From NCBI GenBank assembly GCA_000002445.1, contig CP000070.1, forward strand, positions 864,001-928,000: DNA of 64,000 bases, in the 5' to 3' direction. Within the stretch, counting starts at the first letter, position 1. Every line of letters starts with the position of its first letter. Positions 1 through 22,394 of the stretch are shown here, piece after piece. A program made the translations under genes and the position numbers. This DNA is from Trypanosoma brucei. Lineage: Eukaryota. The notes under the pieces are model-generated. The model ran no database searches and had not been told where the DNA came from. It saw only the letters and a list, made by a program, of their open reading frames with translations.

Positions 1-1862
1 GCAGCTAGTTCATTTGTTTTCTCCTCTTGTAATCGGAGAAGATCATCCCTCTCAGACGAAACATCATGCAGTTTTGCGCCAAGTTCACAGAGTTCTTGTT
101 CTAGAGTATTCAGTTGTTGACGGCCTTCGTCGATTTGCTCCTTCAATAGATCTAGGCCATCCTTAGGTTCATTTAATTTCAACAGCAGCCGCTGCGTTTC
201 CCTGAATGGGTAATGCTGAAGCCGTTGAGCAATTTCCGAAGGATGAATGCTTGAAGGATGGGTGACATCAAATTCAACCACACGACCACTCGGAGTGAAC
301 GTTACATTACTCACACAATCCCTGTAGACACGACATGCATTAGCAGCATCAACAACAACAGCACAACGTAACTCTTCCGGTTTATTCTTCAGCAACTCAT
401 CTAACCTCTCACCTTGAAGTTGAACACACTGAGAACTTACCATGCAATCTCCCTCCATCGAAGCCATCCACCGAGAATCATGTTTCCGCAGCTCATCATT
501 TTCAGCACGAATCGCCTTCAGACTCTCTTGTAGCAAAGAAATTTTGGACTCAACGTTAGCAATCAGTTCATTAAGAGACTCAATTTCCTTTGCGTTATCA
601 GATTCGGCAAGACGAAGTTGCTCATTTTCCTCCTTAAGTTGTTGCAAATGTCGCTCCACCTCGCACACATGTTTCTTGAGCAAATCAAGCTCACGGGCTT
701 TTTCTTCTTCAGCACGGTGGAGCTCCTCGCTTTCTTTACTCAACTTTTTGATGTGTTGATCCTTTGCCGAACAGAGTTCATTTTGCGCATCAAGCTCAAT
801 CACCTTCTCTCTGACACACTCCCTCAATGCATCCACTTCCTCTTGCATCTTCTTCACCTTTTCCTCCATTTCCTCCAGATGACGACTCCGCAAGTCAAGT
901 TCACGTGCCTTTTCGGCCTCCGAATCCCGAAGCCCACCGTTTTCAGTGCGAAGTTCAGCAAGTTGCTCTTCCATCTCATTAAGTTTCTCATTCTGCACAT
1001 CAAGTTCACGTGCTTTCGCCTCATCAGAGCCGCGAAGTTGCTCATTTTGAACTAAAAATTCTTGAAGCTTACCGTCCAAGTCACCTAGTAAACCTTCCTG
1101 AACAACAAGATCATTCGACTTACACTCCAAAGTTCTCTTGAGATCACAATTTTCTTCCACTAAAGCATCTAATTGGTTCTCTACAGCAGTTAGCCGCGCC
1201 TGTTGTGCAGCTAGTTCATTTGTTTTCTCCTCTTGTAATCGGAGAAGATCATCCCTCTCAGACGAAACATCATGCAGTTTTGCGCCAAGTTCACAGAGTT
1301 CTTGTTCTAGAGTATTCAGTTGTTGACGGCCTTCGTCGATTTGCTCCTTCAATAGATCTAGGCCATCCTTAGGTTCATTTAATTTCAACAGCAGCCGCTG
1401 CGTTTCCCTGAATGGGTAATGCTGAAGCCGTTGAGCAATTTCCGAAGGATGAATGCTTGAAGGATGGGTGACATCAAATTCAACCACACGACCACTCGGA
1501 GTGAACGTTACATTACTCACACAATCCCTGTAGACACGACATGCATTAGCAGCATCAACAACAACAGCACAACGTAACTCTTCCGGTTTATTCTTCAGCA
1601 ACTCATCTAACCTCTCACCTTGAAGTTGAACACACTGAGAACTTACCATGCAATCTCCCTCCATCGAAGCCATCCACCGAGAATCATGTTTCCGCAGCTC
1701 ATCATTTTCAGCACGAATCGCCTTCAGACTCTCTTGTAGCAAAGAAATTTTGGACTCAACGTTAACAATCAGTTCATTAAGAGACTCAATTTCCTTTGCG
1801 TTATCAAAATCAGTAAGACGAAGTTGCTCATTTTCCTCCTTAAGTTGTTGCAAATGCCGTTC
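1..1862 (-). repeat. Higher-order direct repeat with a period of about 1208 bp. Copy 1..655 is about 98% identical to copy 1209..1862. The spacer at 656..1208 consists of degenerate 105-bp-family units.
   Basis: 'gcagctagttcatttgtttt' occurs at 1 and 1209. The plus-strand ORFs 442..759 and 1648..1872 start with the same 39 residues. The repeat may continue beyond the left edge. Confidence 0.85.
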
Positions 1863-4800
1863 CATCTCATGAAGTTTCTCATTCTGTACATCAAGTTCAC
1901 GTGCCTTGTCACCATCAGTATTGCGAAGCTCCTCATTCTCAGCGCGTAGTTCAGCAAGTTGCTCCTCCATCTCATGAAGTTTCTCATTCTGCACATCAAG
2001 TTCACGTGCCTTGTCACCATCAGTATTGCGAAGCTCCTCATTTTCCTCCTTAAGTTGTTGCAAATGCCGTTCCATCTCATGAAGTTTCTCATTCTGTACA
2101 TCAAGTTCACGTGCCTTGTCACCATCAGTATTGCGAAGCTCCTCATTCTCAGCGCGTAGTTCAGCAAGTTGCTCCTCCATCTCATGAAGTTTCTCATTCT
2201 GCACATCAAGTTCACGTGCCTTGTCACCATCAGTATTGCGAAGCTCCTCATTCTCAGCGCGTAGTTCAGCAAGTTGCTCTTCCATCTCATGAAGTTTCTC
2301 ATTCTGCACATCAAGTTCACGTGCCTTGTCCCCTTCAGTATTGCGAAGCTCCTCATTCTCAGCGCGTAGTTCAGCAAGTTGCTCCTCCATCTCATGAAGT
2401 TTCTCATTCTGCACATCAAGTTCACGTGCCTTGTCACCATCAGTATTGCGAAGCTCCTCATTCTCAGCGCGTAGTTCAGCAAGTTGCTCTTCCATCTCAT
2501 GAAGTTTCTCATTCTGCACATCAAGTTCACGTGCCTTGTCCCCTTCAGTATTGCGAAGCTCCTCATTCTCAGCGCGTAGTTCAGCAAGTTGCTCCTCCAT
2601 CTCATGAAGTTTCTCATTCTGCACATCAAGTTCACGTGCCTTGTCACCATCAGTATTGCGAAGCTCCTCATTCTCAGCGCGTAGTTCAGCAAGTTGCTCC
2701 TCCATCTCATGAAGTTTCTCATTCTGTACATCAAGTTCACGTGCCTTGTCACCATCAGTATTGCGAAGCTCCTCATTCTCAGCGCGTAGTTCAGCAAGTT
2801 GCTCTTCCATCTCATGAAGTTTCTCATTCTGCACATCAAGTTCACGTGCCTTGTCACCATCAGTATTGCGAAGCTCCTCATTCTCAGCGCGTAGTTCAGC
2901 AAGTTGCTCTTCCATCTCATGAAGTTTCTCATTCTGCACATCAAGTTCACGTGCCTTGTCACCATCAGTATTGCGAAGCTCCTCATTCTCAGCGCGTAGT
3001 TCAGCAAGTTGCTCTTCCATCTCATGAAGTTTCTCATTCTGTACATCAAGTTCACGTGCCTTGTCACCATCAGTATTGCGAAGCTCCTCATTTTCAGCGC
3101 GTAGTTCAGCAAGTTGCTCCTCCATCTCATGAAGTTTCTCATTCTGCACATCAAGTTCACGTGCCTTGTCACCTTCAGTATTGCGAAGCTCCTCATTTTC
3201 AGCGCGTAGTTCAGCAAGTTGCTCTTCCATCTCATGAAGTTTCTCATTCTGTACATCAAGTTCACGTGCCTTGTCACCATCAGTATTGCGAAGCTCCTCA
3301 TTTTCAGCGCGTAGTTCGGCAAGTTGCTCCTCCATCTCATGAAGTTTCTCATTCTGTACATCAAGTTCACGTGCCTTGTCACCATCAGTATTGCGAAGCT
3401 CCTCATTTTCAGCGCGTAGTTCGGCAAGTTGCTCCTCCATCTCATGAAGTTTCTCATTCTGTACATCAAGTTCACGTGCCTTGTCACCATCAGTATTGCG
3501 AAGCTCCTCATTTTCAGCGCGTAGTTCAGCAAGTTGCTCCTCCATCTCATGAAGTTTCTCATTCTGCACATCAAGTTCACGTGCCTTGTCCCCTTCAGTA
3601 TTGCGAAGCTCCTCATTCTCAGCGCGTAGTTCAGCAAGTTGCTCCTCCATCTCATGAAGTTTCTCATTCTGCACATCAAGTTCACGTGCCTTGTCCCCTT
3701 CAGTATTGCGAAGCTCCTCATTCTCAGTGCGTAGTTCAGCAAGTTGCTCCTCCATCTCATGAAGTTTCTCATTCTGCACATCAAGTTCACGTGCCTTGTC
3801 CCCTTCAGTATTGCGAAGCTCCTCATTTTCAGCGCGTAGTTCAGCAAGTTGCTCCTCCATCTCATGAAGTTTCTCATTCTGTACATCAAGTTCACGTGCC
3901 TTGTCACCATCAGTATTGCGAAGCTCCTCATTCTCAGCGCGTAGTTCAGCAAGTTGCTCTTCCATCTCATGAAGTTTCTCATTCTGCACATCAAGTTCAC
4001 GTGCCTTGTCCCCTTCAGTATTGCGAAGCTCCTCATTCTCTGCGCGTAGTTCAGCAAGTTGCTCCTCCATCTCATGAAGTTTCTCATTCTGTACATCAAG
4101 TTCACGTGCCTTGTCACCATCAGTATTGCGAAGCTCCTCATTCTCAGCGCGTAGTTCAGCAAGTTGCTCCTCCATCTCATGAAGTTTCTCATTCTGTACA
4201 TCAAGTTCACGTGCCTTGTCACCATCAGTATTGCGAAGCTCCTCATTCTCAGCGCGTAGTTCAGCAAGTTGCTCTTCCATCTCATGAAGTTTCTCATTCT
4301 GCACATCAAGTTCACGTGCCTTGTCCCCTTCAGTATTGCGAAGCTCCTCATTCTCAGCGCGTAGTTCGGCAAGTTGCTCCTCCATCTCATGAAGTTTCTC
4401 ATTCTGCACATCAAGTTCACGTGCCTTGTCCCCTTCAGTATTGCGAAGCTCCTCATTCTCAGCGCGTAGTTCAGCAAGTTGCTCCTCCATCTCATGAAGT
4501 TTCTCATTCTGCACATCAAGTTCACGTGCCTTGTCCCCTTCAGTATTGCGAAGCTCCTCATTTTCAGCGCGTAGTTCAGCAAGTTGTTCCTCCATCTCAT
4601 GAAGTTTCTCATTCTGCACATCAAGTTCACGTGCCTTGTCCCCTTCAGTATTGCGAAGCTCCTCATTTTCAGCGCGTAGTTCGGCAAGTTGCTCCTCCAT
4701 CTCATGAAGTTTCTCATTCTGCACATCAAGTTCACGTGCCTTGTCCCCTTCAGTATTGCGAAGCTCCTCATTCTCAGCGCGTAGTTCAGCAAGTTGCTCC

Positions 4801-7800
4801 TCCATCTCATGAAGTTTCTCATTCTGCACATCAAGTTCACGTGCCTTGTCACCATCAGTATTGCGAAGCTCCTCATTCTCAGCGCGTAGTTCAGCAAGTT
4901 GCTCCTCCATCTCATGAAGTTTCTCATTCTGCACATCAAGTTCACGTGCCTTGTCACCATCAGTATTGCGAAGCTCCTCATTTTCAGCGCGTAGTTCAGC
5001 AAGTTGCTCTTCCATCTCATGAACGTATCCCTGCAGCTGGACGTCACCTGATGCTGCTTCCCTAATGCGATGAAGCTCCTCATTTTCAGCGCGTAGTTCA
5101 GCAAGTTGCTCTTCCATCTCATGAACGTATCCCTGCAGCTCGACGTCACCTGATGCTGCTTCCCTAATGCGATGAAGCTCCTCATTTTCAGCGCGTAGTT
5201 CAGCAAGTTGCTCTTCCATCTCATGAACGTATCCCTGCAGCTCGACGTCACCTGATGCTGCTTCCCTAATGCGATGAAGCTCCTCATTTTCAGCGCGTAG
5301 TTCAGCAAGTTGCTCTTCCATCTCATGAACGTATCCCTGCAGCTCGACGTCACCTGAAGCTGCTTCCCTAATGCAATGAAGCTCTTCTTTTTCTATTAGT
5401 TGTCCTATTATCTGTTGATGTGGTCGCATGGGGCTGTGTTGTCCTTGTTTGTCTTCTTTTATTCGTACTGCTTTTCTTTCTTCGGGGGACTCTTCGCTTA
5501 ATGGTTCTTCGGTTTTTTGTTGCCTCTGACGATGTGCTCTTATGTTACATATATTATCTTTGTCGTGATCACGTAACGATTCGTCTTGTTCATGTAGCTT
5601 GCTGTGCTCTGTTGGGGTTTCTTTTCTGTACGTTTCCCTTGTCTGACATTCTTCTGAACTTTCGACGGATGTGTTGGTGCGGGTTGTTTCTTCTTCGCTA
5701 GTTTCTTTCTCTAAAAGATATCCGTCGTCTTTTGCGTCCTCGGTTTTTGTTTGAATAACTTCTTCTTTGTTTTCTTTTGTCCGGCGTAGTAAAGTGTTTT
5801 CGTCATTCAGTATGCGTAGCCTCTCCTCCAATGCTTTTATGTGCCCTCGTAGTTCCTCAATCTGAGCAATTTCCTCCCTGGTGGACATGAATAAATCACC
5901 ATCGTCCAGGGTTTCGTGCAAACTGTGAGAATAAGAAGGACTGTCTTGGTGATCTCCTTCCCTCCGGCCTCTATTGCTGTGTTGGTGAGGGTCACTTTCT
6001 CCTTGTTTCCCGATCGTTTGCATTAGTTGCAACACTGAAAGAAACTCTGCCCTCCTGACCCGTTGTGCGAGATCGTATTGTGACACGGAAGGAGGGTGAG
6101 AGACGGTGAACACGACAGATGTGTAGTACTCATTGAAACAAATATCGTCAATATCACTGATATCTACCTGGCAAGCACGAGCGGCATCCACAAGAACGGC
6201 TTTGTTGATATCTTCTCTATTGTTGATTATGTGCGTCCTCCATTCACGGAGATCGATATTCTTTTTGAGTGTGGATGTGACCCTCTCCCCATGTTGGTCT
6301 TTATGTCCCTCGATGATGTAGCCCTCTCTGCTCCCACCGCGAGTTGATGCATGCAGCGGAGACTCGTGCTCACTTACCCCCTGGTCCGTAGCGTCGTATC
6401 CTCTAATCTGATCACCGCTGCTTTCCCTTTGTAGTTCCTCTATTTCTTTGCGGTAGTGCTCCAGCTGACGAAGATCTTCGTCATGGCGCTGCTTAAGTTC
6501 GCTGATCTTGATTATCCCTTCTTGGCGCGTCTTCTCTGCCAGTTCACGCTGCTCGTTCAGGAGCTGCTGTAGCTCGTTGTTCACCCGCTGCGCTTCTTCA
6601 ATTTGTTGTAAGAGGTCACTGTTCTCTTCATGGGCAATATCAGTGGAATTTTGCCGTGGCTGAGAGTCCACTGCTTCGTCCTTCGGCTGCAAACCACCAC
6701 AGCTGAACCCCCCTTCCAACGCATGATGAAGAGCAACGTGGAGCAGCGGGCGGTGAATGGTAGCGCACCAGTCAATGAACTGCACATCCTTGTCCGTAAT
6801 GCTAACGACATCACCATTATCATCCGAAATACTCAAAACTGTCAGAATACAAGAACGGGAAACGTTGGTTGACGGCCTATCAGCAGAGGCAACGAACGTA
6901 AGGTACTGTTCGCTCTCATCTTCGCAAGCCCCATCGTCAACACTGCTTCCCTCTTCAGCACTGCAGTGCAACTTTGTTTCAATGCGCTTGATTTGCGTGT
7001 TCAGTTCCTTTATGTGAGCTATGTGGCTGGTAATATTCGCGTGCAGCTCGTCTGTGGACCGCTGAGAGTTTACGATCTCACATATGACGTGAAACATGCC
7101 CATCTGGGCAATGATCCAATCAAAAAGAAGAGGTAGCAGGGTGTCAGTACCGGACCTCGACCCGCCGGTCGTTTTCCCACTTAGTTGATTGCAGTAGAGG
7201 TGGACATCGGACATGTAGGCATCGTTGATGTCGTTGTAAAGTTCTACGCTCATATCAGTCATTGGGTCAAATTCCAGCAACCGCTGTATGTAGGTCGGAT
7301 CCCTCACAGCGGCCCGCAGGTCCTCCCACGACCATGAGGAATCAACAACCAAGTCCTCATTTAGAAGTGCGACAGTTGCCTCTAGCGCAAGCCGAAGTTG
7401 CACCGATGGAACCCGTGTGTTGAACACTTCGTGAAGTCGCACCTCCTCTACAGCCGCAATAGCACGACGAACGGCATCGGAAGACTCCTTTGCACGCCCC
7501 ATGGCCGCCTCATTGTTACGCCGAACAGCCGCCATCTCCTCGCGCAACGCCATAACACTCATGTGGCGGTGCCTCATCTCCTCCATTTTCCTCTCTTTGT
7601 CGATCCTTAGTGTGTTGAGAACAGCGGGATCGTGGCTGTTCTGTGGGAGCAACACACGCACCGTAGCGGAACGTGAATCCAGCTGCAACACGCGCCCCAG
7701 AAACCATCGCCGCTTGGAAGCTTTGCCTAATAATTCATAGGCCACAAGAGACCCCACGCACAAGGGGTCTTTCACACTATTAAGTAACGACTTCACACGG

Positions 7801-7892
7801 CTGTGGGTCGGACTAGCGCCTTTGTCCAACGCATGCAGAGAATCTGCTGTTTGTGACCACTCCTCATCGAAATGGCCTTCGGCGGTTGCCAT
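1..7892 (-). CDS. Giant repetitive coiled-coil protein. The N-terminus is complete (ATG at 7890-7892, revcomp) and the 3' end runs off the left window edge. Possibly the trypanosome flagellum-attachment-zone giant protein FAZ10.
   Basis: Translating the reverse strand by hand from the ATG at 7892 gives an uninterrupted frame (codon tops = 2 mod 3) down to position 1. An in-frame TAG lies just upstream of the ATG. The N-terminal ~830 aa are unique sequence. They are followed by 4 x 34-aa units (EELHRIREAASGDVELQGYVHEMEEQLAELRAEN), about 30 x 35-aa units (EELRNTDGDKARELDVQNEKLHEMEEQLAELRAEN) and degenerate heptad-rich coiled coil. This true frame is absent from the ORF track because it has no stop inside the window. 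The FAZ10 suggestion comes only from recalled gene order next to FPPS and the giant repetitive character. Confidence 0.8.
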   Translation of the reverse strand, partial: MATAEGHFDEEWSQTADSLHALDKGASPTHSRVKSLLNSVKDPLCVGSLVAYELLGKASKRRWFLGRVLQLDSRSATVRVLLPQNSHDPAVLNTLRIDKERKMEEMRHRHMSVMALREEMAAVRRNNEAAMGRAKESSDAVRRAIAAVEEVRLHEVFNTRVPSVQLRLALEATVALLNEDLVVDSSWSWEDLRAAVRDPTYIQRLLEFDPMTDMSVELYNDINDAYMSDVHLYCNQLSGKTTGGSRSGTDTLLPLLFDWIIAQMGMFHVICEIVNSQRSTDELHANITSHIAHIKELNTQIKRIETKLHCSAEEGSSVDDGACEDESEQYLTFVASADRPSTNVSRSCILTVLSISDDNGDVVSITDKDVQFIDWCATIHRPLLHVALHHALEGGFSCGGLQPKDEAVDSQPRQNSTDIAHEENSDLLQQIEEAQRVNNELQQLLNEQRELAEKTRQEGIIKISELKQRHDEDLRQLEHYRKEIEELQRESSGDQIRGYDATDQGVSEHESPLHASTRGGSREGYIIEGHKDQHGERVTSTLKKNIDLREWRTHIINNREDINKAVLVDAARACQVDISDIDDICFNEYYTSVVFTVSHPPSVSQYDLAQRVRRAEFLSVLQLMQTIGKQGESDPHQHSNRGRREGDHQDSPSYSHSLHETLDDGDLFMSTREEIAQIEELRGHIKALEERLRILNDENTLLRRTKENKEEVIQTKTEDAKDDGYLLEKETSEEETTRTNTSVESSEECQTRETYRKETPTEHSKLHEQDESLRDHDKDNICNIRAHRQRQQKTEEPLSEESPEERKAVRIKEDKQGQHSPMRPHQQIIGQLIEKEELHCIREAASGDVELQGYVHEMEEQLAELRAENEELHRIREAASGDVELQGYVHEMEEQLAELRAENEELHRIREAASGDVELQGYVHEMEEQLAELRAENEELHRIREAASGDVQLQGYVHEMEEQLAELRAENEELRNTDGDKARELDVQNEKLHEMEEQLAELRAENEELRNTDGDKARELDVQNEKLHEMEEQLAELRAENEELRNTEGDKARELDVQNEKLHEMEEQLAELRAENEELRNTEGDKARELDVQNEKLHEMEEQLAELRAENEELRNTEGDKARELDVQNEKLHEMEEQLAELRAENEELRNTEGDKARELDVQNEKLHEMEEQLAELRAENEELRNTEGDKARELDVQNEKLHEMEEQLAELRAENEELRNTDGDKARELDVQNEKLHEMEEQLAELRAENEELRNTDGDKARELDVQNEKLHEMEEQLAELRAENEELRNTEGDKARELDVQNEKLHEMEEQLAELRAENEELRNTDGDKARELDVQNEKLHEMEEQLAELRAENEELRNTEGDKARELDVQNEKLHEMEEQLAELRTENEELRNTEGDKARELDVQNEKLHEMEEQLAELRAENEELRNTEGDKARELDVQNEKLHEMEEQLAELRAENEELRNTDGDKARELDVQNEKLHEMEEQLAELRAENEELRNTDGDKARELDVQNEKLHEMEEQLAELRAENEELRNTDGDKARELDVQNEKLHEMEEQLAELRAENEELRNTEGDKARELDVQNEKLHEMEEQLAELRAENEELRNTDGDKARELDVQNEKLHEMEEQLAELRAENEELRNTDGDKARELDVQNEKLHEMEEQLAELRAENEELRNTDGDKARELDVQNEKLHEMEEQLAELRAENEELRNTDGDKARELDVQNEKLHEMEEQLAELRAENEELRNTDGDKARELDVQNEKLHEMEEQLAELRAENEELRNTEGDKARELDVQNEKLHEMEEQLAELRAENEELRNTDGDKARELDVQNEKLHEMEEQLAELRAENEELRNTEGDKARELDVQNEKLHEMEEQLAELRAENEELRNTDGDKARELDVQNEKLHEMEEQLAELRAENEELRNTDGDKARELDVQNEKLHEMERHLQQLKEENEELRNTDGDKARELDVQNEKLHEMEEQLAELRAENEELRNTDGDKARELDVQNEKLHEMERHLQQLKEENEQLRLTDFDNAKEIESLNELIVNVESKISLLQESLKAIRAENDELRKHDSRWMASMEGDCMVSSQCVQLQGERLDELLKNKPEELRCAVVVDAANACRVYRDCVSNVTFTPSGRVVEFDVTHPSSIHPSEIAQRLQHYPFRETQRLLLKLNEPKDGLDLLKEQIDEGRQQLNTLEQELCELGAKLHDVSSERDDLLRLQEEKTNELAAQQARLTAVENQLDALVEENCDLKRTLECKSNDLVVQEGLLGDLDGKLQEFLVQNEQLRGSDEAKARELDVQNEKLNEMEEQLAELRTENGGLRDSEAEKARELDLRSRHLEEMEEKVKKMQEEVDALRECVREKVIELDAQNELCSAKDQHIKKLSKESEELHRAEEEKARELDLLKKHVCEVERHLQQLKEENEQLRLAESDNAKEIESLNELIANVESKISLLQESLKAIRAENDELRKHDSRWMASMEGDCMVSSQCVQLQGERLDELLKNKPEELRCAVVVDAANACRVYRDCVSNVTFTPSGRVVEFDVTHPSSIHPSEIAQRLQHYPFRETQRLLLKLNEPKDGLDLLKEQIDEGRQQLNTLEQELCELGAKLHDVSSERDDLLRLQEEKTNELA
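1846..5000 (-). repeat. Tandem array of about 30 near-identical 105-bp (35-aa) coding repeats.
   Basis: 'tcagcaagtt' recurs at 2161, 2266 and 2581, giving a period of 105. Units differ only at a few positions: caccatcagt vs ccccttcagt (D/E), ctcagcgc vs ttcagcgc, tgcacatc vs tgtacatc, cctccat vs cttccat. These variants are arranged in blocks. Confidence 0.95.
5000..5395 (-). repeat. Tandem array of 4 x 102-bp (34-aa) coding repeats that are related to, but distinct from, the 105-bp family.
   Basis: 'acgtcacc' recurs at 5041, 5143, 5245 and 5347, giving a period of 102. Confidence 0.9.
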
Positions 7893-9065: not shown

Positions 9066-10847
9066 TCACATCTCGGATGGATGGTGCGTGACGAACACGT
9101 GCAGTGGGTCAAAGTCCTCGAGCAAGGGATTAAACCCACTTCGCGTAGTGAAGATAGATGTTTTATCACCCCCGAATGTTTTCCAAAACTGAGGGTGCGA
9201 CATGCTTGAAACCTCTTTATATGCACCGCATATATTGCGGTACACCGCCTTAAGAAGGTCGAAATCTGTAGGAAAGCAAATGTCGATCATTCCTGCGTTG
9301 CCATGCAGGGAATCCGCAGGACGACGGAGGTAAATGTCCTTGGCAATACGCGTCTTGCTTTGCAGCACCGGTCCATTCACGCCTGGGAGGCCTTGACGCA
9401 CCGACCCCCAATCTACAAGGAAAAGATGATGACGGGGAAAATACGTTGCACAGGTCTCAAGGAAGAGCATCGAGACTGTTGGCAGCCACAAGGTGCGGAA
9501 CGGGCTGTGCATCCACATCATCTTTGTAATAACTACCCGCAGAGGGTCGTACATGTTTGGCTCGATGCTCGTAAAGGGAGGTGGATCGATGTTGTCACGT
9601 CCACCGGTGAGGCACAGTACCTTGAGGCTATGAAACGACTCCTCCTGCATCCAGCGTGCATAGCGCAAGTAGCGAAGTATGACCGGATCCTTCACTGAAA
9701 AATACCTCTCGTGAGCAGTGGAAAGATTGTCATGTTGCTGGAAGTGAAACCATTGCTCATTACATACTCCATCGGCACTCAGCACGACACAATCGTGCGG
9801 CATACCAGAGAGTAACTCCACGCCGAACACGACGCAGCGCCTACGCTCCACTTCCCTCCAGTTCAAAATGGAGATGTTGTGAATTTTGACATGGTGGTAG
9901 TGCATAATAAGACGGTTACGAAGCACCTGCACGAGCTGAGGGTTTATTTCCACCACATGATACTCACACTGTTCGTACACAGAAGGGAAGTGCTCGCTCA
10001 GGTAGTCCAGAACACTAACAGCAAGTGCCCCTGAGCCCGCCCCAATATCGTACACAACCAGCGGGTCCCGAGGATCGAACTTCGCTCTCATCATGGTTAC
10101 CAGGTACTCTGCAATCACCCAACCGTAGTGTGGTTGAAAGAGTTGGGTGGGTGTGACACATGAGGGTGTAGAATCGTGAATCTTCCCCACGTAGCGCTCA
10201 TAGTCCTGCTGGTTGCGCAGGCTACCAAACGGAATGGGGTCAAAGTAGCCGGTGGTCATGAGTTGGCGGTATTTGCGATACAGTTTTGGGTAGTATCCCC
10301 ATTTCTTATGATACAAGGCAAAATGAATGAAGTCTCGCATAATCAACTCCGTTCCAAGTGACTCGTGGTCGGCGACAGCCCCACCTTCAAAAACAAGAAG
10401 GTCCTCGAATAGTTTTTTTTGTCGCGTCACTCGTCGCTCCTCCTCCTCAGCTGCAAGCTCGTGAAGGCGTGATTCTGACACAGCCTCATTACACGATGAC
10501 AATATGTAAGGCATCCCACTACCTACCGATGGAAGCACCGGGGTCGAGCTCATAGCAGCAGCATGGGGCCCCACGACGGCACCTGATGCAGTAGTCATAC
10601 TGCAATCAACAATGTTGCCCTGCGAGACACAAGAAGGGGCGCCATCGCAGCTATTATTACCATCATTTCCCTGATTGCTGTAATGCGGGGGCAGGAGAGC
10701 GGCGCTGCCGTCGCCTGGCGTACTGAAGGGACTGCGGCTTCCGGCAGCACCAGCAGCGGGAAAGGAATACCATCGTCTCCCCGGGGATGATGGGATGGAG
10801 CGGGGCGAAACCCGAAGGGTACGCCCACCGAGTGGGAAGTACCTCAT
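9066..10847 (-). CDS. SAM-dependent methyltransferase of the DUF185/MidA family (NDUFAF7-like). The N-terminal ~110 aa are low-complexity, so the true start may be an internal Met.
   Basis: ELIMRDFIHFALYHKKWGYYP (MidA N-terminal motif), VVYDIGAGSGALAVSVLDYL (glycine-rich SAM-binding loop) and YHVVEINPQLVQVLRNRL. Placement is by recalled family motifs only. Confidence 0.6.
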   Translation of the reverse strand: MRYFPLGGRTLRVSPRSIPSSPGRRWYSFPAAGAAGSRSPFSTPGDGSAALLPPHYSNQGNDGNNSCDGAPSCVSQGNIVDCSMTTASGAVVGPHAAAMSSTPVLPSVGSGMPYILSSCNEAVSESRLHELAAEEEERRVTRQKKLFEDLLVFEGGAVADHESLGTELIMRDFIHFALYHKKWGYYPKLYRKYRQLMTTGYFDPIPFGSLRNQQDYERYVGKIHDSTPSCVTPTQLFQPHYGWVIAEYLVTMMRAKFDPRDPLVVYDIGAGSGALAVSVLDYLSEHFPSVYEQCEYHVVEINPQLVQVLRNRLIMHYHHVKIHNISILNWREVERRRCVVFGVELLSGMPHDCVVLSADGVCNEQWFHFQQHDNLSTAHERYFSVKDPVILRYLRYARWMQEESFHSLKVLCLTGGRDNIDPPPFTSIEPNMYDPLRVVITKMMWMHSPFRTLWLPTVSMLFLETCATYFPRHHLFLVDWGSVRQGLPGVNGPVLQSKTRIAKDIYLRRPADSLHGNAGMIDICFPTDFDLLKAVYRNICGAYKEVSSMSHPQFWKTFGGDKTSIFTTRSGFNPLLEDFDPLHVFVTHHPSEM

Positions 10848-11280: not shown

Positions 11281-12468
11281 TCAAGCAATAGGTTCGTTAT
11301 CATGTGTTTCTCTCTCTAACCGCACACCGCCTTTATGGTCACTTGTAGTTTCCCGTATCTCGCATGTCTCCCCCGGCTGGCTTGTGTCTCTACTCGGGTA
11401 GGCACCATCAGTCGCATTGTCCCCAAGGTTGTGGACCCCGATATCGGGAACGGCACCACTACTTCCTGCCGGATTCTTTTTATATCGGCGAAAGTCACGA
11501 CGCTTCTGGATTGCTAAGCACCCGCATGGCCCTTTACTTCTATCCGTGGCGACGAGTGGCTTTGACTGCTTCGATAACTTTTCACGCCTTTTCGCACGTT
11601 TGCTCAGCACGTGTTCGTACGTGGTTCGGCGGGTTAAGCAGAGATTGATATGAAACACTATGAGATTTCCCAATGCGGCCAGTCCAGCAGCGGAGAGCGC
11701 AAGTGTGAGAAAAAGAAAAACCATGTACGTCACGTAGCTACTGACTCCAAAACGCTCCTTGAGGCGGTCACTGAAGTCCTGCTTGTGTATAAATGCATTA
11801 GAGATGACGTAAATGCCAACGCCGAACACAAGGGCGATAGAACACCATGCTGTGCCCATGAAGCAGCAGAACATGACATAATTCCCCTCCCCTACACACG
11901 TGTTCAGCCAACGACAGTGGTGGTCGAAGCCGGGGACACACTTGTCACACACACTGCAGTGTTTGCTGCCCAAAATAACAAAGCGTCTGCAAAAGACGCA
12001 AGGCTCAGTACCAGGCGGGGCGGCTTCCTGCACAAGTTCCTCTTGTGCATAGCGTGGAACGTCCGTGGCAAAGACAATTGGGTCCTCAATCCGACTACAG
12101 GAAAGCGCTAATTTCAGCGCCGCTGTAGTGAATGTTAAGAAGCCAGAAATGGGGGAAATTATGCAAACCAGCAAACTATCGAGCATCGGAACGTGCAGTG
12201 TGAAATGCAGCGTAGCAAGCGTGACAATGACAGACCAAGCTATTACCTGAAGGGCGTCTAAAGGACACTCAAACCCACTGCGCCGCGGCCGTACAGGGCC
12301 CCCATAAATGTCAATCCACTGCCCAACAGGAGGCTCACAGCAACAGCTGCACATTAAAAGATTACAAGGACACACCGAACTGTGAACCTTCCAATTTGTT
12401 GAAGGGAAACAAGAAGCAACAAACCAGCAGTAACAGTAGAAGATGCTACGGCAAATCCGCCCCCACAA
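11281..12468 (-). CDS. DHHC-type zinc-finger palmitoyl acyltransferase. The start codon is uncertain.
   Basis: CSVCDKCVPGFDHHCRWLNTCVGEGNY is a canonical DHHC cysteine-rich domain. It is flanked by predicted transmembrane helices (LQVIAWSVIVTLATLHF, LLVCIISPISGFLTFTTAAL, AWCSIALVFGVGIYVI). Confidence 0.85.
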   Translation of the reverse strand: MWGRICRSIFYCYCWFVASCFPSTNWKVHSSVCPCNLLMCSCCCEPPVGQWIDIYGGPVRPRRSGFECPLDALQVIAWSVIVTLATLHFTLHVPMLDSLLVCIISPISGFLTFTTAALKLALSCSRIEDPIVFATDVPRYAQEELVQEAAPPGTEPCVFCRRFVILGSKHCSVCDKCVPGFDHHCRWLNTCVGEGNYVMFCCFMGTAWCSIALVFGVGIYVISNAFIHKQDFSDRLKERFGVSSYVTYMVFLFLTLALSAAGLAALGNLIVFHINLCLTRRTTYEHVLSKRAKRREKLSKQSKPLVATDRSKGPCGCLAIQKRRDFRRYKKNPAGSSGAVPDIGVHNLGDNATDGAYPSRDTSQPGETCEIRETTSDHKGGVRLERETHDNEPIA

Positions 12469-14018: not shown

Positions 14019-15122
14019 TCACTTCTGGCGCTTGTAAGTCTTTCCCCACAGAGTTTCTACGCTGGCAGCAAATCCTGGTGAGCAAAGCCTCAGTTTCTCA
14101 ATAAGCTCCTTCACCTGCTCTGCCACCGCAGCCTCGTAGGCTACATAATCCTCCTGCAGATCCGCTTCCTCATAGAGCCGCCTCACTGTGGCCACCTTCT
14201 CCGAGTCTCCACTGCCGTAGTTTGCTTTGAACTCAGCAATCTGCGCACTGCTCGCTTTTGCGAGAAATGTTACGGCCAACCAAGAACACTTTGCATCCTG
14301 AATGTCAGTTCCAACTTTTCCTAGCCGCTCGGGTGGTGTAAAACAATCCATGACGTCGTCCTGCACCTGAAAGTATTCGCCCATAAGCATGGCCAACTCT
14401 TCCGTAACGCCCATGTCAACGGTGGGAAGAGCCTCACTAACAATAAGCCCCATAACTAGTGGTAGAAGGTAAGTGTAATAAGCTGTCTTGTACTTCACAA
14501 TCCGCTTGTAATTGGAAAGGGTGAACTCCGCGAAATCTGTCGTAGTGGGCTGCGATACGTCGGGATCGAGTTTGTTTGAGTCAAACATTGACGTCACATC
14601 GTATAACTGCCCGACAGCTGTGGTGTAATCCACTCTGTTGAAACGACAGAGCAAATCCTGCAAAAAAGGACGGTCTGCAAAGAAGTGCATCGCCATCATG
14701 TGAGTCCACGACTTCAATAGCAGACCGTCATTTATAGCACACTGCACCGTGACGCCTGGGTGACGGTACCAGCATGGCTTACCACGCCGCGTGACGCTGT
14801 TGTCCATAATGTCATCTTCCACCAAGTAATGGGCCTGAAGGAACTCAATCATCCAACCACAAACACACGCATCGTGTAGAACACGTTTCCGCCTTGCCCC
14901 ATCGTCTTTTTCACCGTTGTTGTTTGGGCTTAGGGAAAGAAGGGACTCGGCCACATCGATCACCGTCAGGCCACGGTTGTATTTGCCGCCCAAGCATGTG
15001 GTGTCCATCATTTTCCGGAGGTATCTGACTCGATTCGGATCCATGTCGAACTTAAGTTTCAGTTCTTCGAGCAGAAACATCTGAATCTCATCATATACCT
15101 GCATAAACATTTGCATTACCAT
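14019..15122 (-). CDS. FPPS: Farnesyl pyrophosphate synthase (farnesyl diphosphate synthase).
   Basis: First aspartate-rich motif LVEDDIMDNSVTRRGKPCWY, second motif QVQDDVMD, and the GKVGTDIQDAKCSW box. The 367-aa length and N-terminus MxMQMFMQVYDEIQMFLLEEL match my memory of Trypanosoma brucei FPPS. Confidence 0.95.
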   Translation of the reverse strand: MVMQMFMQVYDEIQMFLLEELKLKFDMDPNRVRYLRKMMDTTCLGGKYNRGLTVIDVAESLLSLSPNNNGEKDDGARRKRVLHDACVCGWMIEFLQAHYLVEDDIMDNSVTRRGKPCWYRHPGVTVQCAINDGLLLKSWTHMMAMHFFADRPFLQDLLCRFNRVDYTTAVGQLYDVTSMFDSNKLDPDVSQPTTTDFAEFTLSNYKRIVKYKTAYYTYLLPLVMGLIVSEALPTVDMGVTEELAMLMGEYFQVQDDVMDCFTPPERLGKVGTDIQDAKCSWLAVTFLAKASSAQIAEFKANYGSGDSEKVATVRRLYEEADLQEDYVAYEAAVAEQVKELIEKLRLCSPGFAASVETLWGKTYKRQK

Positions 15123-21080: not shown

Positions 21081-22394
21081 TCATGTTGGTGCATCCGCCA
21101 TACAATCGATCACCTCGTCTGGCAAACCCAACCGCATGTTGAGCACCGGATCCGGCTCTTCTGGAGCAATTGGGGCACCCCTTCCCCCACAGTAGGAAAG
21201 AGAGGTCCCCTCAAGGTTACAACCAGGGACTACCTCACAGTGAGGCTCGTCATGGCTCCACGTGCCACGGAAAACGCGGCCATCCCGTGTTTTGATTTCA
21301 CCCACACCATGTCTCCTGTCATCTAGCCAGTCACCAGAGTACTCAACTTCCCCGCATTGGTACACACCTCGTCCGCAACGCTTACCGCCTCGAAACTCAC
21401 CCTTGTAGCTACATTTTTTGTCTTGGGAAACAAACTCACCATCGCCATCGTATAGTCCCCTACACCAGGAACCCTTATACATGGACCCGTCGGCGTATGT
21501 GCATTTCCCGATGCCATGAACAGCACCACTGCTCCACCCTCCTTCGTACTGAAGCAACTTACTTGTATATGTCCCCGTGCCGTGCTTCCGTCCGTTACAC
21601 CAATCTCCGGTATAAACATCCCCATTGTAGTAGGTCATCGTTCCACGGCCGTGCTCATAGCCGTTTCGCCACTGGCCTTCGTACCTAGCCCCGTTAGTAT
21701 AGAAAAATGTTCCCGAGCCTTCGTACACGCCATTCACCCAATCGCCTTTATACGCATATCCCTCACGGTACAGGTACTCTCCGTATCCCCGTATTTGGCC
21801 GTCAACAAAATCGCCAATATACAGCCCTTCAGGTTCCGCCAGCTCGCCCCGACCATGCCATTTTCCGGCCAGCCACTTCCCGCTGTAAAGTGTTCCAAAG
21901 TTAGGGCTGCAGCACATGCCATTACCATTGCGCACTCCGAAGAACCATTCACCCTCGTAAATATCGTTATCTGCCACTCGGCGCATGACGCCCGTCCCGT
22001 GCATTCGGCAACTTTTCCAATTGCCTTCATACATATCGCCGTTGTCAAAAGTAATGGATTGATACCCTTCTGGACTCATTGCCTTCAATCGTTCACGTAC
22101 AACAATGAGCAGTTCGTCAAGAAGAGCCTGTGTGCGCTCAGATGCACGCTGCTCCACTAACTGCAGCTCCTCTCGCCGCTCATTCTGCTTTCGCAGCAGG
22201 TGTCTTAGCGACTTCTTGAAGTTCAAACATTCTATATGACCAGCCTCACGCTCTCTAAATGTCCTCTCAACTTCCTCCTGTGCTTCCAGCGACTGCCGCA
22301 GTATCTCTATCCCGCCCTTAGGGAATGTTGGGGGGTTCACGGACGGACAGGAACTCCACATCGGCACTAGGCCGATTCCTGATCCCAAAGCCAT
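21081..22394 (-). CDS. MORN-repeat protein with an N-terminal coiled coil.
   Basis: At least 10 tandem Y-x-G-x-W/F-x-x-G-x-x-H-G-x-G MORN units (YEGEWFFGVRNGNG, YSGKWLAGKWHGRG, YKGDWVNGVYEGSG, YEGQWRNGYEHGRG, YTGDWCNGRKHGTG and others). Confidence 0.85.
   Translation of the reverse strand: MALGSGIGLVPMWSSCPSVNPPTFPKGGIEILRQSLEAQEEVERTFREREAGHIECLNFKKSLRHLLRKQNERREELQLVEQRASERTQALLDELLIVVRERLKAMSPEGYQSITFDNGDMYEGNWKSCRMHGTGVMRRVADNDIYEGEWFFGVRNGNGMCCSPNFGTLYSGKWLAGKWHGRGELAEPEGLYIGDFVDGQIRGYGEYLYREGYAYKGDWVNGVYEGSGTFFYTNGARYEGQWRNGYEHGRGTMTYYNGDVYTGDWCNGRKHGTGTYTSKLLQYEGGWSSGAVHGIGKCTYADGSMYKGSWCRGLYDGDGEFVSQDKKCSYKGEFRGGKRCGRGVYQCGEVEYSGDWLDDRRHGVGEIKTRDGRVFRGTWSHDEPHCEVVPGCNLEGTSLSYCGGRGAPIAPEEPDPVLNMRLGLPDEVIDCMADAPT

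What the first reader, a model, noticed from the sequence alone, without database searches (positions are those of the whole stretch)
240..6290. A recurring ~50-aa non-coiled-coil module punctuates the giant coiled-coil protein
Three places in the giant gene interrupt the heptad-rich sequence with a compact, hydrophobic module that is similar across sites. At about 6060-6290 it reads ...INNREDINKAVLVDAARACQVDISDIDDICFNEYYTSVVFTVSHPPSVSQYDLAQRV. At about 240-400, and in its higher-order copy at about 1450-1610, it reads ...ELRCAVVVDAANACRVYRDCVSNVTFTPSGRVVEFDVTHPSSIHPSEIAQRL. The shared pattern is (A/K)V(L/V)VDAAxACxV ... V(x)F(T) ... V(x)F(T)V(S/T)HP(P/S)S ... (L/I)AQR(L/V). This looks like a small globular or beta-hairpin insert spaced along a rod. 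It could be a regularly spaced docking site along a filamentous scaffold. I do not recognise it as a named domain.
Basis: seen in the sequence. Interest (0 to 1): 0.5.

Follow-up and report, generated by a model that had tools for sequence, protein, structure and literature searches.

The report
Known FAZ1 domain repeated in FAZ10
The recurring module is real, but it is the already catalogued ~100-residue "FAZ1 conserved domain" (Pfam PF23398) of trypanosome cytoskeletal proteins, seen here in the giant flagellum-attachment protein FAZ10, where its copies sit between the rod segments; what the domain does is still unknown.

Summary
The giant ORF on the minus strand (7892 down to the window edge) carries three copies of a compact non-coiled-coil module. 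Copy 1 matches copy 2 at 34% identity (BLASTP E 2e-12; shuffle z about 19). Copies 2 and 3 are identical and lie 1206 nt apart.

The module is a named domain. All three copies hit Pfam PF23398 "FAZ1, conserved domain" at 64-81 bits against a cut-off of 27.5. This family was formerly Pfam-B PB000506, reported in 2015 in nine T. brucei cytoskeletal proteins.

The gene is Trypanosoma brucei-group FAZ10. It has 35-residue repeats, an FPPS neighbour about 99% identical to TbFPPS, and six residues named in a 2026 preprint that match by number. That preprint already modelled and expressed modules 2 and 3 as 12-kDa monomeric globular domains flanking the central coiled coil.

Small additions: a fourth identical copy lies off-window before the C-terminal region, so the copies mark all four boundaries between FAZ10's five regions. 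Their spacing is irregular. The FAZ10 N-terminus is a divergent dynein stalk/microtubule-binding-like head shared across the family.

The function stays inferred: a structural or adaptor node. This is already known, so interest is low.

The parts
3..7892 (-). FAZ10 coding sequence (T. brucei-group, Tb927.7.3330-type). The first 2630 aa from the Met are in the window; the ORF is cut by the left edge of the window.
   Evidence: The frame is open from 7919 to 3. The 35-aa repeats match the description in Moreira 2017. Residues D2070, P2576, L2178, L2181, E2247 and K2252 named in the 2026 preprint all match by number. The neighbouring FPPS ORF is about 99% identical to T. brucei FPPS in PDB 5AEL/2EWG. 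The N-terminus matches L. major LmjF.22.1320 (P0037), and its L. mexicana counterpart LmxM.22.1320 is the published FAZ10 homologue.
5991..6296 (-). Module copy D1 (aa 533-634): the divergent FAZ1_cons domain, between the N-terminal region and repeat block 1.
   Evidence: Pfam PF23398 at 64.1 bits, E 1.1e-17, covering profile positions 2-91 of 93. AF2 core pLDDT is above 90, with topology beta-alpha-alpha-beta-beta-alpha-alpha.
1359..1664 (-). Module copy D2 (aa 2077-2178): the FAZ1_cons domain at the N-terminal end of the central coiled coil.
   Evidence: Pfam PF23398 at 81.5 bits, E 4.2e-23. AF2 gives pLDDT 91.1 and pTM 0.82. It corresponds to one of the 'globular domains' of the preprint's construct D2070-P2576.
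153..458 (-). Module copy D3 (aa 2479-2580): the FAZ1_cons domain at the C-terminal end of the central coiled coil. It is identical to D2.
   Evidence: Pfam PF23398 at 81.3 bits. Window 1-558 is 100% identical to 1207-1764.
459..1358 (-). Central coiled coil between D2 and D3 (aa 2179-2478).
   Evidence: Heptad a/d contrast is 0.48 with no proline. The preprint reports a parallel dimer about 50.8 nm long, confirmed by SEC-MALS.
1861..5329 (-). Repeat block 1: 33 tandem copies of a 105-nt (35-aa) unit forming the rod between D1 and D2.
   Evidence: TRF reports period 105, 33.1 copies and 96% matches.
1..558 (-). Second copy of the duplicated segment, 100% identical to 1207-1764. It carries D3 plus the flanking coiled coil, and similarity continues at 92-98% to about 650.
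   Evidence: Position-by-position comparison at an offset of 1206 nt; the repeat finder family D2.
6840..7772 (-). N-terminal head (aa 41-351): a divergent dynein stalk/microtubule-binding-domain-like module that co-occurs with FAZ1_cons across the family.
   Evidence: It is shared by at least 38 of 151 family representatives. The profile matches PDB dynein stalk/MTBD chains at E 7.8e-28 to 1e-22. Seven of 13 members hit Pfam PF12777. FAZ10 on its own matches Dictyostelium dynein at E 0.0065.

Best explanation
The module is the FAZ1 conserved domain (Pfam PF23398; formerly Pfam-B PB000506). It is a kinetoplastid-specific domain of about 95-100 residues that folds on its own, has an alpha/beta fold (beta-alpha-alpha-beta-beta-alpha-alpha), and shows no enzyme-like features. 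The gene is FAZ10, the giant protein of the flagellum attachment zone in the Trypanosoma brucei group.

Shown: FAZ10 carries four copies, three in the window and one off-window. They sit at the four junctions between its five regions: N-terminal head | D1 | repeat rod 1 | D2 | central coiled coil | D3 | repeat rod 2 | D4 | C-terminal region. D2, D3 and D4 are kept identical at the DNA level. I infer this is by gene conversion.

Inferred mechanism: the rods dimerise as parallel coiled coils, so each junction presents a pair of these globular domains. I propose they act as rod-terminating nodes. They end one coiled-coil segment and restart the next, give local flexibility, and offer lateral surfaces for attachment to neighbouring FAZ or cytoskeletal components. 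In paralogues such as Gb4, the same domain strung head-to-tail forms a beads-on-a-string rod. Microtubule anchoring is more likely to come from the dynein-MTBD-like N-terminal head than from this domain.
For: Domain identity:
- All three copies exceed the Pfam gathering score (64-81 bits against 27.5) over nearly the full profile.
- A profile built from the modules retrieves 151 cluster representatives out of 1.84 billion proteins.
- Every named member is a kinetoplastid protein, most labelled 'FAZ1 conserved domain-containing' or Gb4.

Prior literature:
- Sunter 2015 reported the domain in nine T. brucei cytoskeletal proteins and used it to predict FAZ8.
- A 2016 review lists it for FAZ10.

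Gene identity.

Fold:
- AF2 gives pLDDT 91 for D2 and 83 for D1, with the same topology.
- This matches the preprint's description of 'three antiparallel beta strands and four helices'.
- The preprint's recombinant domain is a 12-kDa monomer with a mixed alpha/beta CD spectrum.

Fourth copy:
- T. equiperdum and T. b. equiperdum proteins P0025 and P0153 read: end of a 35-aa repeat, coiled coil, a module identical to D2/D3, then a unique C-terminus of about 430 aa. An ATG8 gene lies downstream.
- The DNA is identical over 302 nt, and homology breaks exactly at the end of helix 4.

Structural-role evidence:
- 216 of 402 inter-domain gaps in the family are 15 aa or shorter, meaning tandem arrays of up to about 24-26 copies. 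Another 83 gaps exceed 100 aa, meaning copies dispersed along rods.
- Conserved positions are mostly core hydrophobics plus G17, W20, D38, H68 and Y93.
Against: - No binding partner or phenotype has been assigned to the domain. The literature says its function 'remains unknown'.
- The isolated domain is monomeric, so strong homotypic cross-linking is unlikely.
- D1 is only 26-33% identical between Trypanosoma species, less than the N-terminal head at 39-48%. That argues against a highly specific conserved interface.
- The L. major orthologue has only two copies, close together at 807-908 and 979-1081, so the 'one domain per rod boundary' layout is not universal.
- D4 and the full layout are inferred from a sister subspecies assembly, not from this window.
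- The AF2 alignments held only three sequences.
Confidence: 0.6

Rival explanations
1. Specific docking module: each FAZ1_cons domain binds a defined FAZ partner (for example another FAZ1_cons protein such as FAZ1 or FAZ8, or ClpGM6/PFR components). The FAZ10 rod would then present fixed attachment sites that organise the intermembrane staples.
For: - The domain occurs only in cytoskeleton-associated kinetoplastid proteins, and five of them are FAZ proteins.
- Having the domain correctly predicted that FAZ8 localises to the FAZ.
- D2, D3 and D4 are kept 100% identical.
- FAZ10 shows a periodic immunogold pattern, and its depletion increases the PFR-FAZ distance.
- The preprint authors suggest an interaction role.
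Against: - Family members localise to very different structures: the FAZ filament, the flagellar tip (FLAM8), the PFR (PFC20) and posterior microtubule ends (Gb4). The domain is therefore not a site-specific address.
- Surface conservation is low: D1 is 26-33% identical between species.
- More than half of neighbouring copies in the family are packed head-to-tail, which suits a structural repeat better.
- The identity of D2, D3 and D4 can be explained by gene conversion alone.
- The spacing is irregular.
Confidence: 0.25
2. Mechanical element: the domains are unfoldable 'beads' or hinges that buffer tension from flagellar beating, by analogy with Ig/Fn3 domains in titin. They would have no binding role.
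For: - The family contains tandem arrays of up to about 24-26 copies with linkers of 15 aa or less.
- The domains sit at breaks between long coiled coils in a proposed load-bearing protein.
- The domain is a small single alpha/beta unit without disulfide or metal motifs.
Against: - There are no mechanical data.
- FAZ10 has only four copies against more than 3000 residues of rod, so their contribution to extensibility would be minor.
- The analogy rests on general knowledge, not on a test done here.
Confidence: 0.1
3. Artefact: the identical copies 2 and 3 come from mis-assembly of a repetitive gene, and the weak similarity to copy 1 is due to chance or composition.
For: Identity of 100% over 558 nt inside a highly repetitive gene is the typical signature of a collapsed or duplicated assembly. 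One public contig breaks exactly inside this sequence.
Against: - The central region carrying both domains was PCR-amplified from strain 427 and expressed as a 66-kDa protein. It is reported to be conserved in length across strains.
- Residue numbering matches the reference.
- The three identical copies have different flanks.
- D1 against D2 gives E 2e-12 and z 18.8, and all copies hit a curated Pfam model.
Confidence: 0.02

Closest known systems
Pfam PF23398 'FAZ1, conserved domain' (FAZ1_cons), formerly Pfam-B PB000506 / 'PFAMB506' (Sunter et al. 2015, PMC4406125)
   Same: It is the same domain. All three copies score 64-81 bits against a cut-off of 27.5 over profile positions 2-91 of 93. 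The source is a kinetoplastid cytoskeletal protein, and FAZ10 is already listed as a PFAMB506 protein.
   Different: Nothing essential differs. The FAZ10 copies depart from some family hallmark residues: D2 has L for W20 and L for Y93, and D1 lacks G17.
The 'globular domains' flanking the FAZ10 central coiled coil (Osorio-Mogollon et al. 2026 preprint, 10.64898/2026.05.05.722045)
   Same: They are the same physical objects as modules D2 and D3. The construct limits D2070 and P2576 fall on the module borders. The fold description is the same.
   Different: The preprint does not link them to Pfam/PFAMB506 ('pfam' occurs 0 times in its text). It also does not mention the N-terminal copy D1 or the C-terminal copy D4.
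Gb4 / FLAM8-type proteins: tandem arrays of the same domain
   Same: Same domain family. Many also share the N-terminal dynein-MTBD-like head.
   Different: In these proteins the copies are packed head-to-tail, up to about 24-26 per protein with linkers of 15 aa or less. In FAZ10, four copies are separated by coiled-coil rods of 300-1440 aa.
Ferredoxin-like alpha/beta plaits (SEA domain 2E7V/1IVZ, MscS C-terminal domain, SorCS2 and GPR126 sub-domains)
Dynein heavy-chain stalk/microtubule-binding domain (Pfam PF12777). This concerns the N-terminal head, not the module.
   Same: The family profile aligns over CC1-MTBD-CC2 of cytoplasmic dynein at E 7.8e-28 to 1e-22. Seven of 13 family members hit PF12777. 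Phyre2 hints of this were published for FAZ1 and FAZ10.
   Different: There is no motor domain. FAZ10's own sequence does not reach the Pfam threshold and gives only E 0.0065 against PDB. Microtubule binding is untested.

Membership tests
Pfam PF23398 FAZ1_cons | HMM score at or above the curated gathering score (27.5 bits) | tested here: met
   D1 scores 64.1, D2 81.5 and D3 81.3 bits. The off-window D4 in P0153 scores 78.2 bits.
Pfam PF23398 FAZ1_cons | Match covers essentially the whole 93-position profile | tested here: met
   Profile positions 2-91 (D1) and 3-90 (D2, D3) of 93.
Pfam PF23398 FAZ1_cons | Reciprocal retrieval: a profile of the modules finds proteins annotated as carrying the family's domain, all from Kinetoplastea | tested here: met
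   151 representatives at E 1e-3 or better. Named ones come from Leishmania, Porcisia, Leptomonas, Angomonas, Strigomonas, Lotmaria and Trypanosoma, and are labelled 'FAZ1 conserved domain-containing' or 'Gb4'. Unnamed members could not be placed taxonomically.
Pfam PF23398 FAZ1_cons | Compact alpha/beta fold with three beta-strands and four helices | tested here: met
   AF2 for D2 gives E5-13, H19-25, H27-42, E49-54, E60-68, H73-82, H86-95 at pLDDT 91. D1 has the same order of elements. This agrees with the preprint's model and CD data. It is a prediction only.
Pfam PF23398 FAZ1_cons | Family hallmark residues (G17, W20, A34, D38, A42, H68, L92, Y93 in D2-model numbering) | tested here: inconclusive
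   D38, A42, H68 and L92 are present in all FAZ10 copies. W20 is kept in D1 but is L in D2/D3. G17 is kept in D2/D3 but not in D1. Y93 is replaced in D2/D3 (L).
T. brucei FAZ10 (Tb927.7.3330) | Giant ORF with near-identical 35-aa repeats in two blocks separated by a central region | tested here: met
   33 copies of a 105-nt unit, followed by the central region. This matches Moreira 2017. The second block is off-window.
T. brucei FAZ10 (Tb927.7.3330) | Residue numbering of the published central region | tested here: met
   D2070, P2576, L2178, L2181, E2247 and K2252 all match.
T. brucei FAZ10 (Tb927.7.3330) | Chromosome-7 context and T. brucei-group origin | tested here: met
   The FPPS ORF at 14019-15122 differs from T. 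brucei FPPS (PDB 5AEL) at 5 of 367 residues. The C-terminal fragment P0153 has a chromosome-7 locus tag and an ATG8 gene downstream. The gene IDs of the neighbours (FPPS = Tb927.7.3360, ATG8.3 = Tb927.7.3320) are from my memory and were not tested.
T. brucei FAZ10 (Tb927.7.3330) | Full length of 4334 aa and the C-terminal region | not testable with these tools
   The window ends at aa 2630. The C-terminus was seen only in T. equiperdum records.
Ferredoxin-like / SEA-domain fold | Four-stranded beta-alpha-beta-beta-alpha-beta plait with a significant structural match | tested here: not met
Dynein stalk/MTBD (Pfam PF12777), for the N-terminal head only | Sequence match to the stalk/MTBD model | tested here: inconclusive
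   The family profile against PDB dynein gives E 7.8e-28, and 7 of 13 members hit PF12777 at best E 6.8e-12. FAZ10 alone gives no Pfam hit and E 0.0065 against Dictyostelium dynein.

The most novel reading that the evidence does not exclude
The paired FAZ1_cons nodes at fixed contour positions along a dimeric FAZ10 rod might be the sites where FAZ10 is cross-linked to other FAZ1_cons proteins or to junctional complexes. The layout is head, about 1440-aa rod, about 300-aa (50 nm) rod, about 1230-aa rod, tail. Under this reading, the inter-domain rod lengths would set the periodic spacing of the FAZ 'staples/sticks', making FAZ10 a molecular ruler built from a domain whose biochemical function has never been defined.
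Probability: 0.1. Interest if true: 0.6.

Novelty: already known. Interest (0 to 1): 0.2.

Why it matters
As a discovery it matters little. The domain is in Pfam and was noted in FAZ10 in a 2016 review. Its FAZ10 central copies were modelled and expressed in 2026.

Three small points are useful to specialists:
- The preprint's 'globular domains' are PF23398 domains. That links FAZ10's structure to FAZ1, FAZ4, FAZ6, FAZ8, Gb4, FLAM8 and PFC20.
- FAZ10 has four copies, one at each of the four boundaries between its five regions. Three of them are kept identical at the DNA level.
- Many family members, FAZ10 included, combine this domain with a dynein-MTBD-like N-terminal head, which suggests where microtubule anchoring resides.

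The biochemical role of the domain is still an open question in trypanosome cytoskeleton biology. The 12-kDa soluble monomer makes it experimentally tractable.

Tried and rejected
- Word-indexed homologue search with module D2 returned nothing, because the index covers kinetoplastid proteins poorly. The exhaustive HMM search replaced it.
- Regular periodicity is rejected. The spacings are 1544, 402 and about 1335 aa.
- I considered a metal or catalytic site formed by conserved H11, D38, C43 and H68 and rejected it. H11 is absent from all FAZ10 copies, and C43 is present in only 42% of family members. By strand geometry H11 and H68 should be far apart, but this is inference because I had no model coordinates.
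- I tested whether D1 is under stronger constraint than its flanks. It is not: 26-33% identity against 39-48% for the N-terminal head.
- Literature searches for functional dissection of the domain (PF23398/IPR056614/PB000506; FAZ1/FAZ8 truncations; Gb4) found no experiment on its function.
- I tried to explain why PDB 7AIH chain 'mL100' is a family member. The paper's main text does not mention it, so it remains unexplained.
- Assembly artefact as the cause of the identical copies is rejected (see rival explanations).
- The long ORFs in other frames across the repeat array (1769-5353 minus, 2111-5065 plus) are side-effects of stop-free repeats, not genes.


Full report
**1. What is in the sequence**

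The finding lies in a single reading frame on the minus strand that is open from 7919 down to 3. It has a plausible start codon at 7890-7892 (MATAEGHF...) and is cut by the left edge of the window. The long ORFs in other frames across the same region are by-products of a stop-free repeat.

The translation contains these parts in order:
- a unique N-terminal part
- a first copy of the module
- a charged linker
- 33 tandem copies of a 105-nt (35-aa) repeat at 1861-5329
- a second copy of the module
- about 300 aa of heptad-rich sequence
- a third copy of the module

An HMM built from the modules and run over all six frames of the 64-kb window finds exactly these three copies. Numbering from the Met:

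| Copy | Residues | Window coordinates |
|---|---|---|
| D1 | 533-634 | 5991-6296 |
| D2 | 2077-2178 | 1359-1664 |
| D3 | 2479-2580 | 153-458 |

**2. Is it more than chance?**

Yes. D1 against D2 gives 34% identity over 68 aa, BLASTP E 2e-12. The Smith-Waterman score is 105 against 24.4 +/- 4.3 for 2000 shuffles, and none reached it.

D2 and D3 are identical. Window 1-558 equals 1207-1764 base for base.

The modules differ from the rods in composition and heptad pattern. V/I/F/Y/W/C make up 22-26% of the modules against 5% of the rods. The a/d contrast is 0.20-0.21 in the modules against 0.45-0.48 in the rods.

**3. What it is**

All three copies match Pfam PF23398, 'FAZ1, conserved domain', at 64-81 bits (cut-off 27.5) over almost the whole 93-position profile. 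The unit is therefore about 95-100 aa.

The family was already described as Pfam-B PB000506 ('PFAMB506'). Sunter et al. 2015 found it in only nine T. brucei proteins, all cytoskeleton-associated (FAZ1, FAZ4, FAZ6, FAZ8, Gb4, PFC20, FLAM8, Tb927.10.870 and others). They used it to predict, correctly, that FAZ8 is a FAZ protein. The 2016 FAZ review lists FAZ10 as a PFAMB506 protein. [quoted passage not shown]

**4. Which gene and organism**

- The ORF at 14019-15122 differs from T. brucei farnesyl pyrophosphate synthase (PDB 5AEL/2EWG) at 5 of 367 residues. The window is therefore from T. brucei or a very close Trypanozoon relative.
- The giant gene fits the published description of FAZ10 (Tb927.7.3330): a 13-kb ORF on chromosome 7 with near-identical 35-aa repeats in two blocks separated by a central region.
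- Six residues that a 2026 preprint names by number (D2070, P2576, L2178, L2181, E2247, K2252) are all found at those positions in the window's protein.
- The N-terminus matches L. major LmjF.22.1320. Its L. mexicana counterpart, LmxM.22.1320, is the published FAZ10 homologue.
- My recollection that FPPS is Tb927.7.3360 and ATG8.3 is Tb927.7.3320 agrees with this but was not tested.

**5. Structure**

AlphaFold2 on D2, with a three-sequence alignment, gives pLDDT 91.1 and pTM 0.82. The elements are E5-13, H19-25, H27-42, E49-54, E60-68, H73-82, H86-95. D1 gives the same order of elements with a core pLDDT above 90. So this is a compact alpha/beta domain, not a continuous helix.

This is what the 2026 preprint reports for the two 'globular domains' at the ends of its central-region construct D2070-P2576: three antiparallel strands and four helices. 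The preprint's recombinant domain is a 12-kDa monomer by SEC-MALS with a mixed alpha/beta CD spectrum, while the coiled coil between the domains dimerises. The preprint never mentions Pfam or PFAMB506, so the link between the two bodies of literature is made here.

**6. The family**

An exhaustive profile search finds 151 cluster representatives among 1.84 billion proteins. Every one that carries a name is kinetoplastid.

Copy number per protein ranges from 1 to about 26. Of 402 gaps between neighbouring copies, 216 are 15 aa or shorter (head-to-tail arrays, for example Gb4 and a Porcisia protein with 24 copies). Another 83 exceed 100 aa (copies dispersed along rods, as in FAZ10).

Family-wide conserved positions are mainly core hydrophobics plus G17, W20, D38, H68 and Y93. 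The FAZ10 copies depart at some of these.

Between Trypanosoma species D1 is only 26-33% identical. That is less than the N-terminal region at 39-48%.

**7. A fourth copy and the layout of FAZ10**

One family representative, T. equiperdum TEOVI_000744700 (P0025), and its cluster-mate from T. b. equiperdum chromosome 7 (P0153, 782 aa) read as follows:
- the tail of a 35-aa repeat
- about 250 aa of coiled-coil-like sequence
- a module identical to D2/D3 from RKHDSRW to RLLL
- a unique C-terminus of about 430 aa, then a stop

An ATG8 gene lies downstream. Pfam confirms the domain at 78 bits. At the DNA level the contig is 100% identical to window 485-184 over 302 nt, and the homology ends exactly at the end of helix 4.

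So Trypanozoon FAZ10 has four copies, placed at the four junctions between the five regions defined in the literature: N-terminal, repeat 1, central, repeat 2 and C-terminal. The start-to-start spacing is 1544 and 402 aa, then about 1335 aa if the C-terminal lengths are equal. That is not periodic.

Three copies are kept identical, presumably by gene conversion, while D1 has diverged. The L. major orthologue has only two copies close together, so this layout is lineage-specific.

**8. Mechanism**

Shown:
- It is an autonomous globular domain of a kinetoplastid cytoskeletal family.
- It sits at the ends of coiled-coil segments.
- It is monomeric in isolation.
- It has no enzyme-like signature.

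Inferred: in the parallel dimer, each junction carries a pair of such domains. These would end and restart the coiled coil, act as flexible nodes, and possibly offer lateral attachment surfaces.

The frequent head-to-tail arrays, the varied cellular locations of family members and the weak surface conservation make me favour a generic structural or adaptor role over a specific docking site. I give the identity near-certainty. The overall statement gets 0.6 because the mechanistic half is untested. Rival explanations and refuting experiments are listed separately.

**9. Side finding**

FAZ10 residues 41-351 form a second module shared by at least 38 of the 151 family representatives, including Gb4-like proteins. 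A 13-sequence profile of it matches dynein heavy-chain stalk/microtubule-binding-domain structures at E 7.8e-28 to 1e-22 (3VKH, 3WUQ, 6KJN, 3ERR). Seven of the 13 hit Pfam PF12777. FAZ10 alone gives only E 0.0065 and no Pfam hit. Phyre2-based hints of 'dynein stalk' in FAZ1 and FAZ10 were published in 2020. This suggests that microtubule anchoring lies in the head, not in the FAZ1_cons module.

Oddly, the best PDB sequence match of this head (E 4.5e-92) is chain BG, 'mL100', of the Leishmania mitoribosome entries 7AIH/7AM2/7ANE. That chain also contains a FAZ1_cons-like segment at about 1225-1270. The paper's main text does not discuss it. I could not find out which residues are modelled.

**10. 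Verdict**

But the module is an already named and published domain in an already characterised protein. The 'regular spacing' and 'unnamed' parts of the interpretation are wrong. Novelty: already known. Interest: low (0.2). The unresolved function of the domain is the only real open question.

Noticed in passing
window 6840-7772 (minus strand; FAZ10 aa 41-351): The N-terminal head of FAZ10 is a divergent dynein stalk/microtubule-binding-domain-like module. It co-occurs with FAZ1_cons in at least 38 of 151 family representatives. The family profile matches PDB dynein MTBD at E 7.8e-28, and 7 of 13 members hit Pfam PF12777. FAZ10 on its own is below the Pfam threshold.
   Followed up: yes
PDB 7AIH/7AM2/7ANE chain BG ('mL100', 1347 aa); not in the window: A protein deposited as a Leishmania mitoribosomal protein is by sequence a member of this cytoskeletal family. 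It has the MTBD-like head at 12-314 (E 4.5e-92) and a FAZ1_cons-like segment at about 1225-1270 (E 3.8e-4). The paper's main text does not mention it. This could be a mis-assigned chain or genuine moonlighting; it is unexplained.
   Followed up: partly
off-window; L002:1-1596 (T. equiperdum) and P0153: A fourth FAZ1_cons copy, identical to D2/D3, precedes the unique FAZ10 C-terminal region of about 430 aa. DNA identity to window 485-184 is 100% over 302 nt and ends exactly at the domain's last helix. This suggests gene conversion tracts bounded by the domain.
   Followed up: yes
window 1-650 vs 1207-1856: The duplicated segment carrying D2/D3 is larger than the domain. It includes about 75 aa of upstream coiled coil (with a few substitutions, for example TDFDN/AESDN) and at least 59 aa downstream. 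The first 558 nt are 100% identical.
   Followed up: partly
window about 4960-5400 (minus strand; aa about 840-985): The first four units of the 35-aa array are a distinct variant (…HRIREAASGDVELQGYVHEMEEQLAELRAENEEL) compared with the main unit (…RNTDGDKARELDVQNEKLHEMEEQLAELRAENEEL). Main units alternate between NTDGD and NTEGD.
   Followed up: no
window 1769-5353 (-) and 2111-5065 (+): The ORF list contains long ORFs (1194 and 984 aa) in other frames and on the other strand across the repeat array. They are by-products of a stop-free 105-nt repeat, not genes.
   Followed up: partly
window 9066-63984: The long ORFs that look like genes (every one with a Pfam hit) all lie on the minus strand, consistent with one polycistronic unit. 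They include Methyltransf_28 (9066-10847), DHHC palmitoyltransferase (11281-12468), FPPS (14019-15122), a MORN-repeat protein (21081-22394), a SacI-domain protein (38880-41360), Vac14 (46069-48144), a 1241-aa protein with only a weak C2 hit (52851-56576), and a 1760-aa WD40/EML-like beta-propeller protein (57562-62844). None of them contains FAZ1_cons.
   Followed up: partly
P0002/P0152 (T. vivax FAZ10 N-terminal fragment) vs window D1 and D2: The T. vivax copy at the D1 position is more similar to T. brucei D2 (34%) than to T. brucei D1 (26%). This suggests that T. brucei D1 has diverged quickly, or that copies have been exchanged between positions.
   Followed up: no
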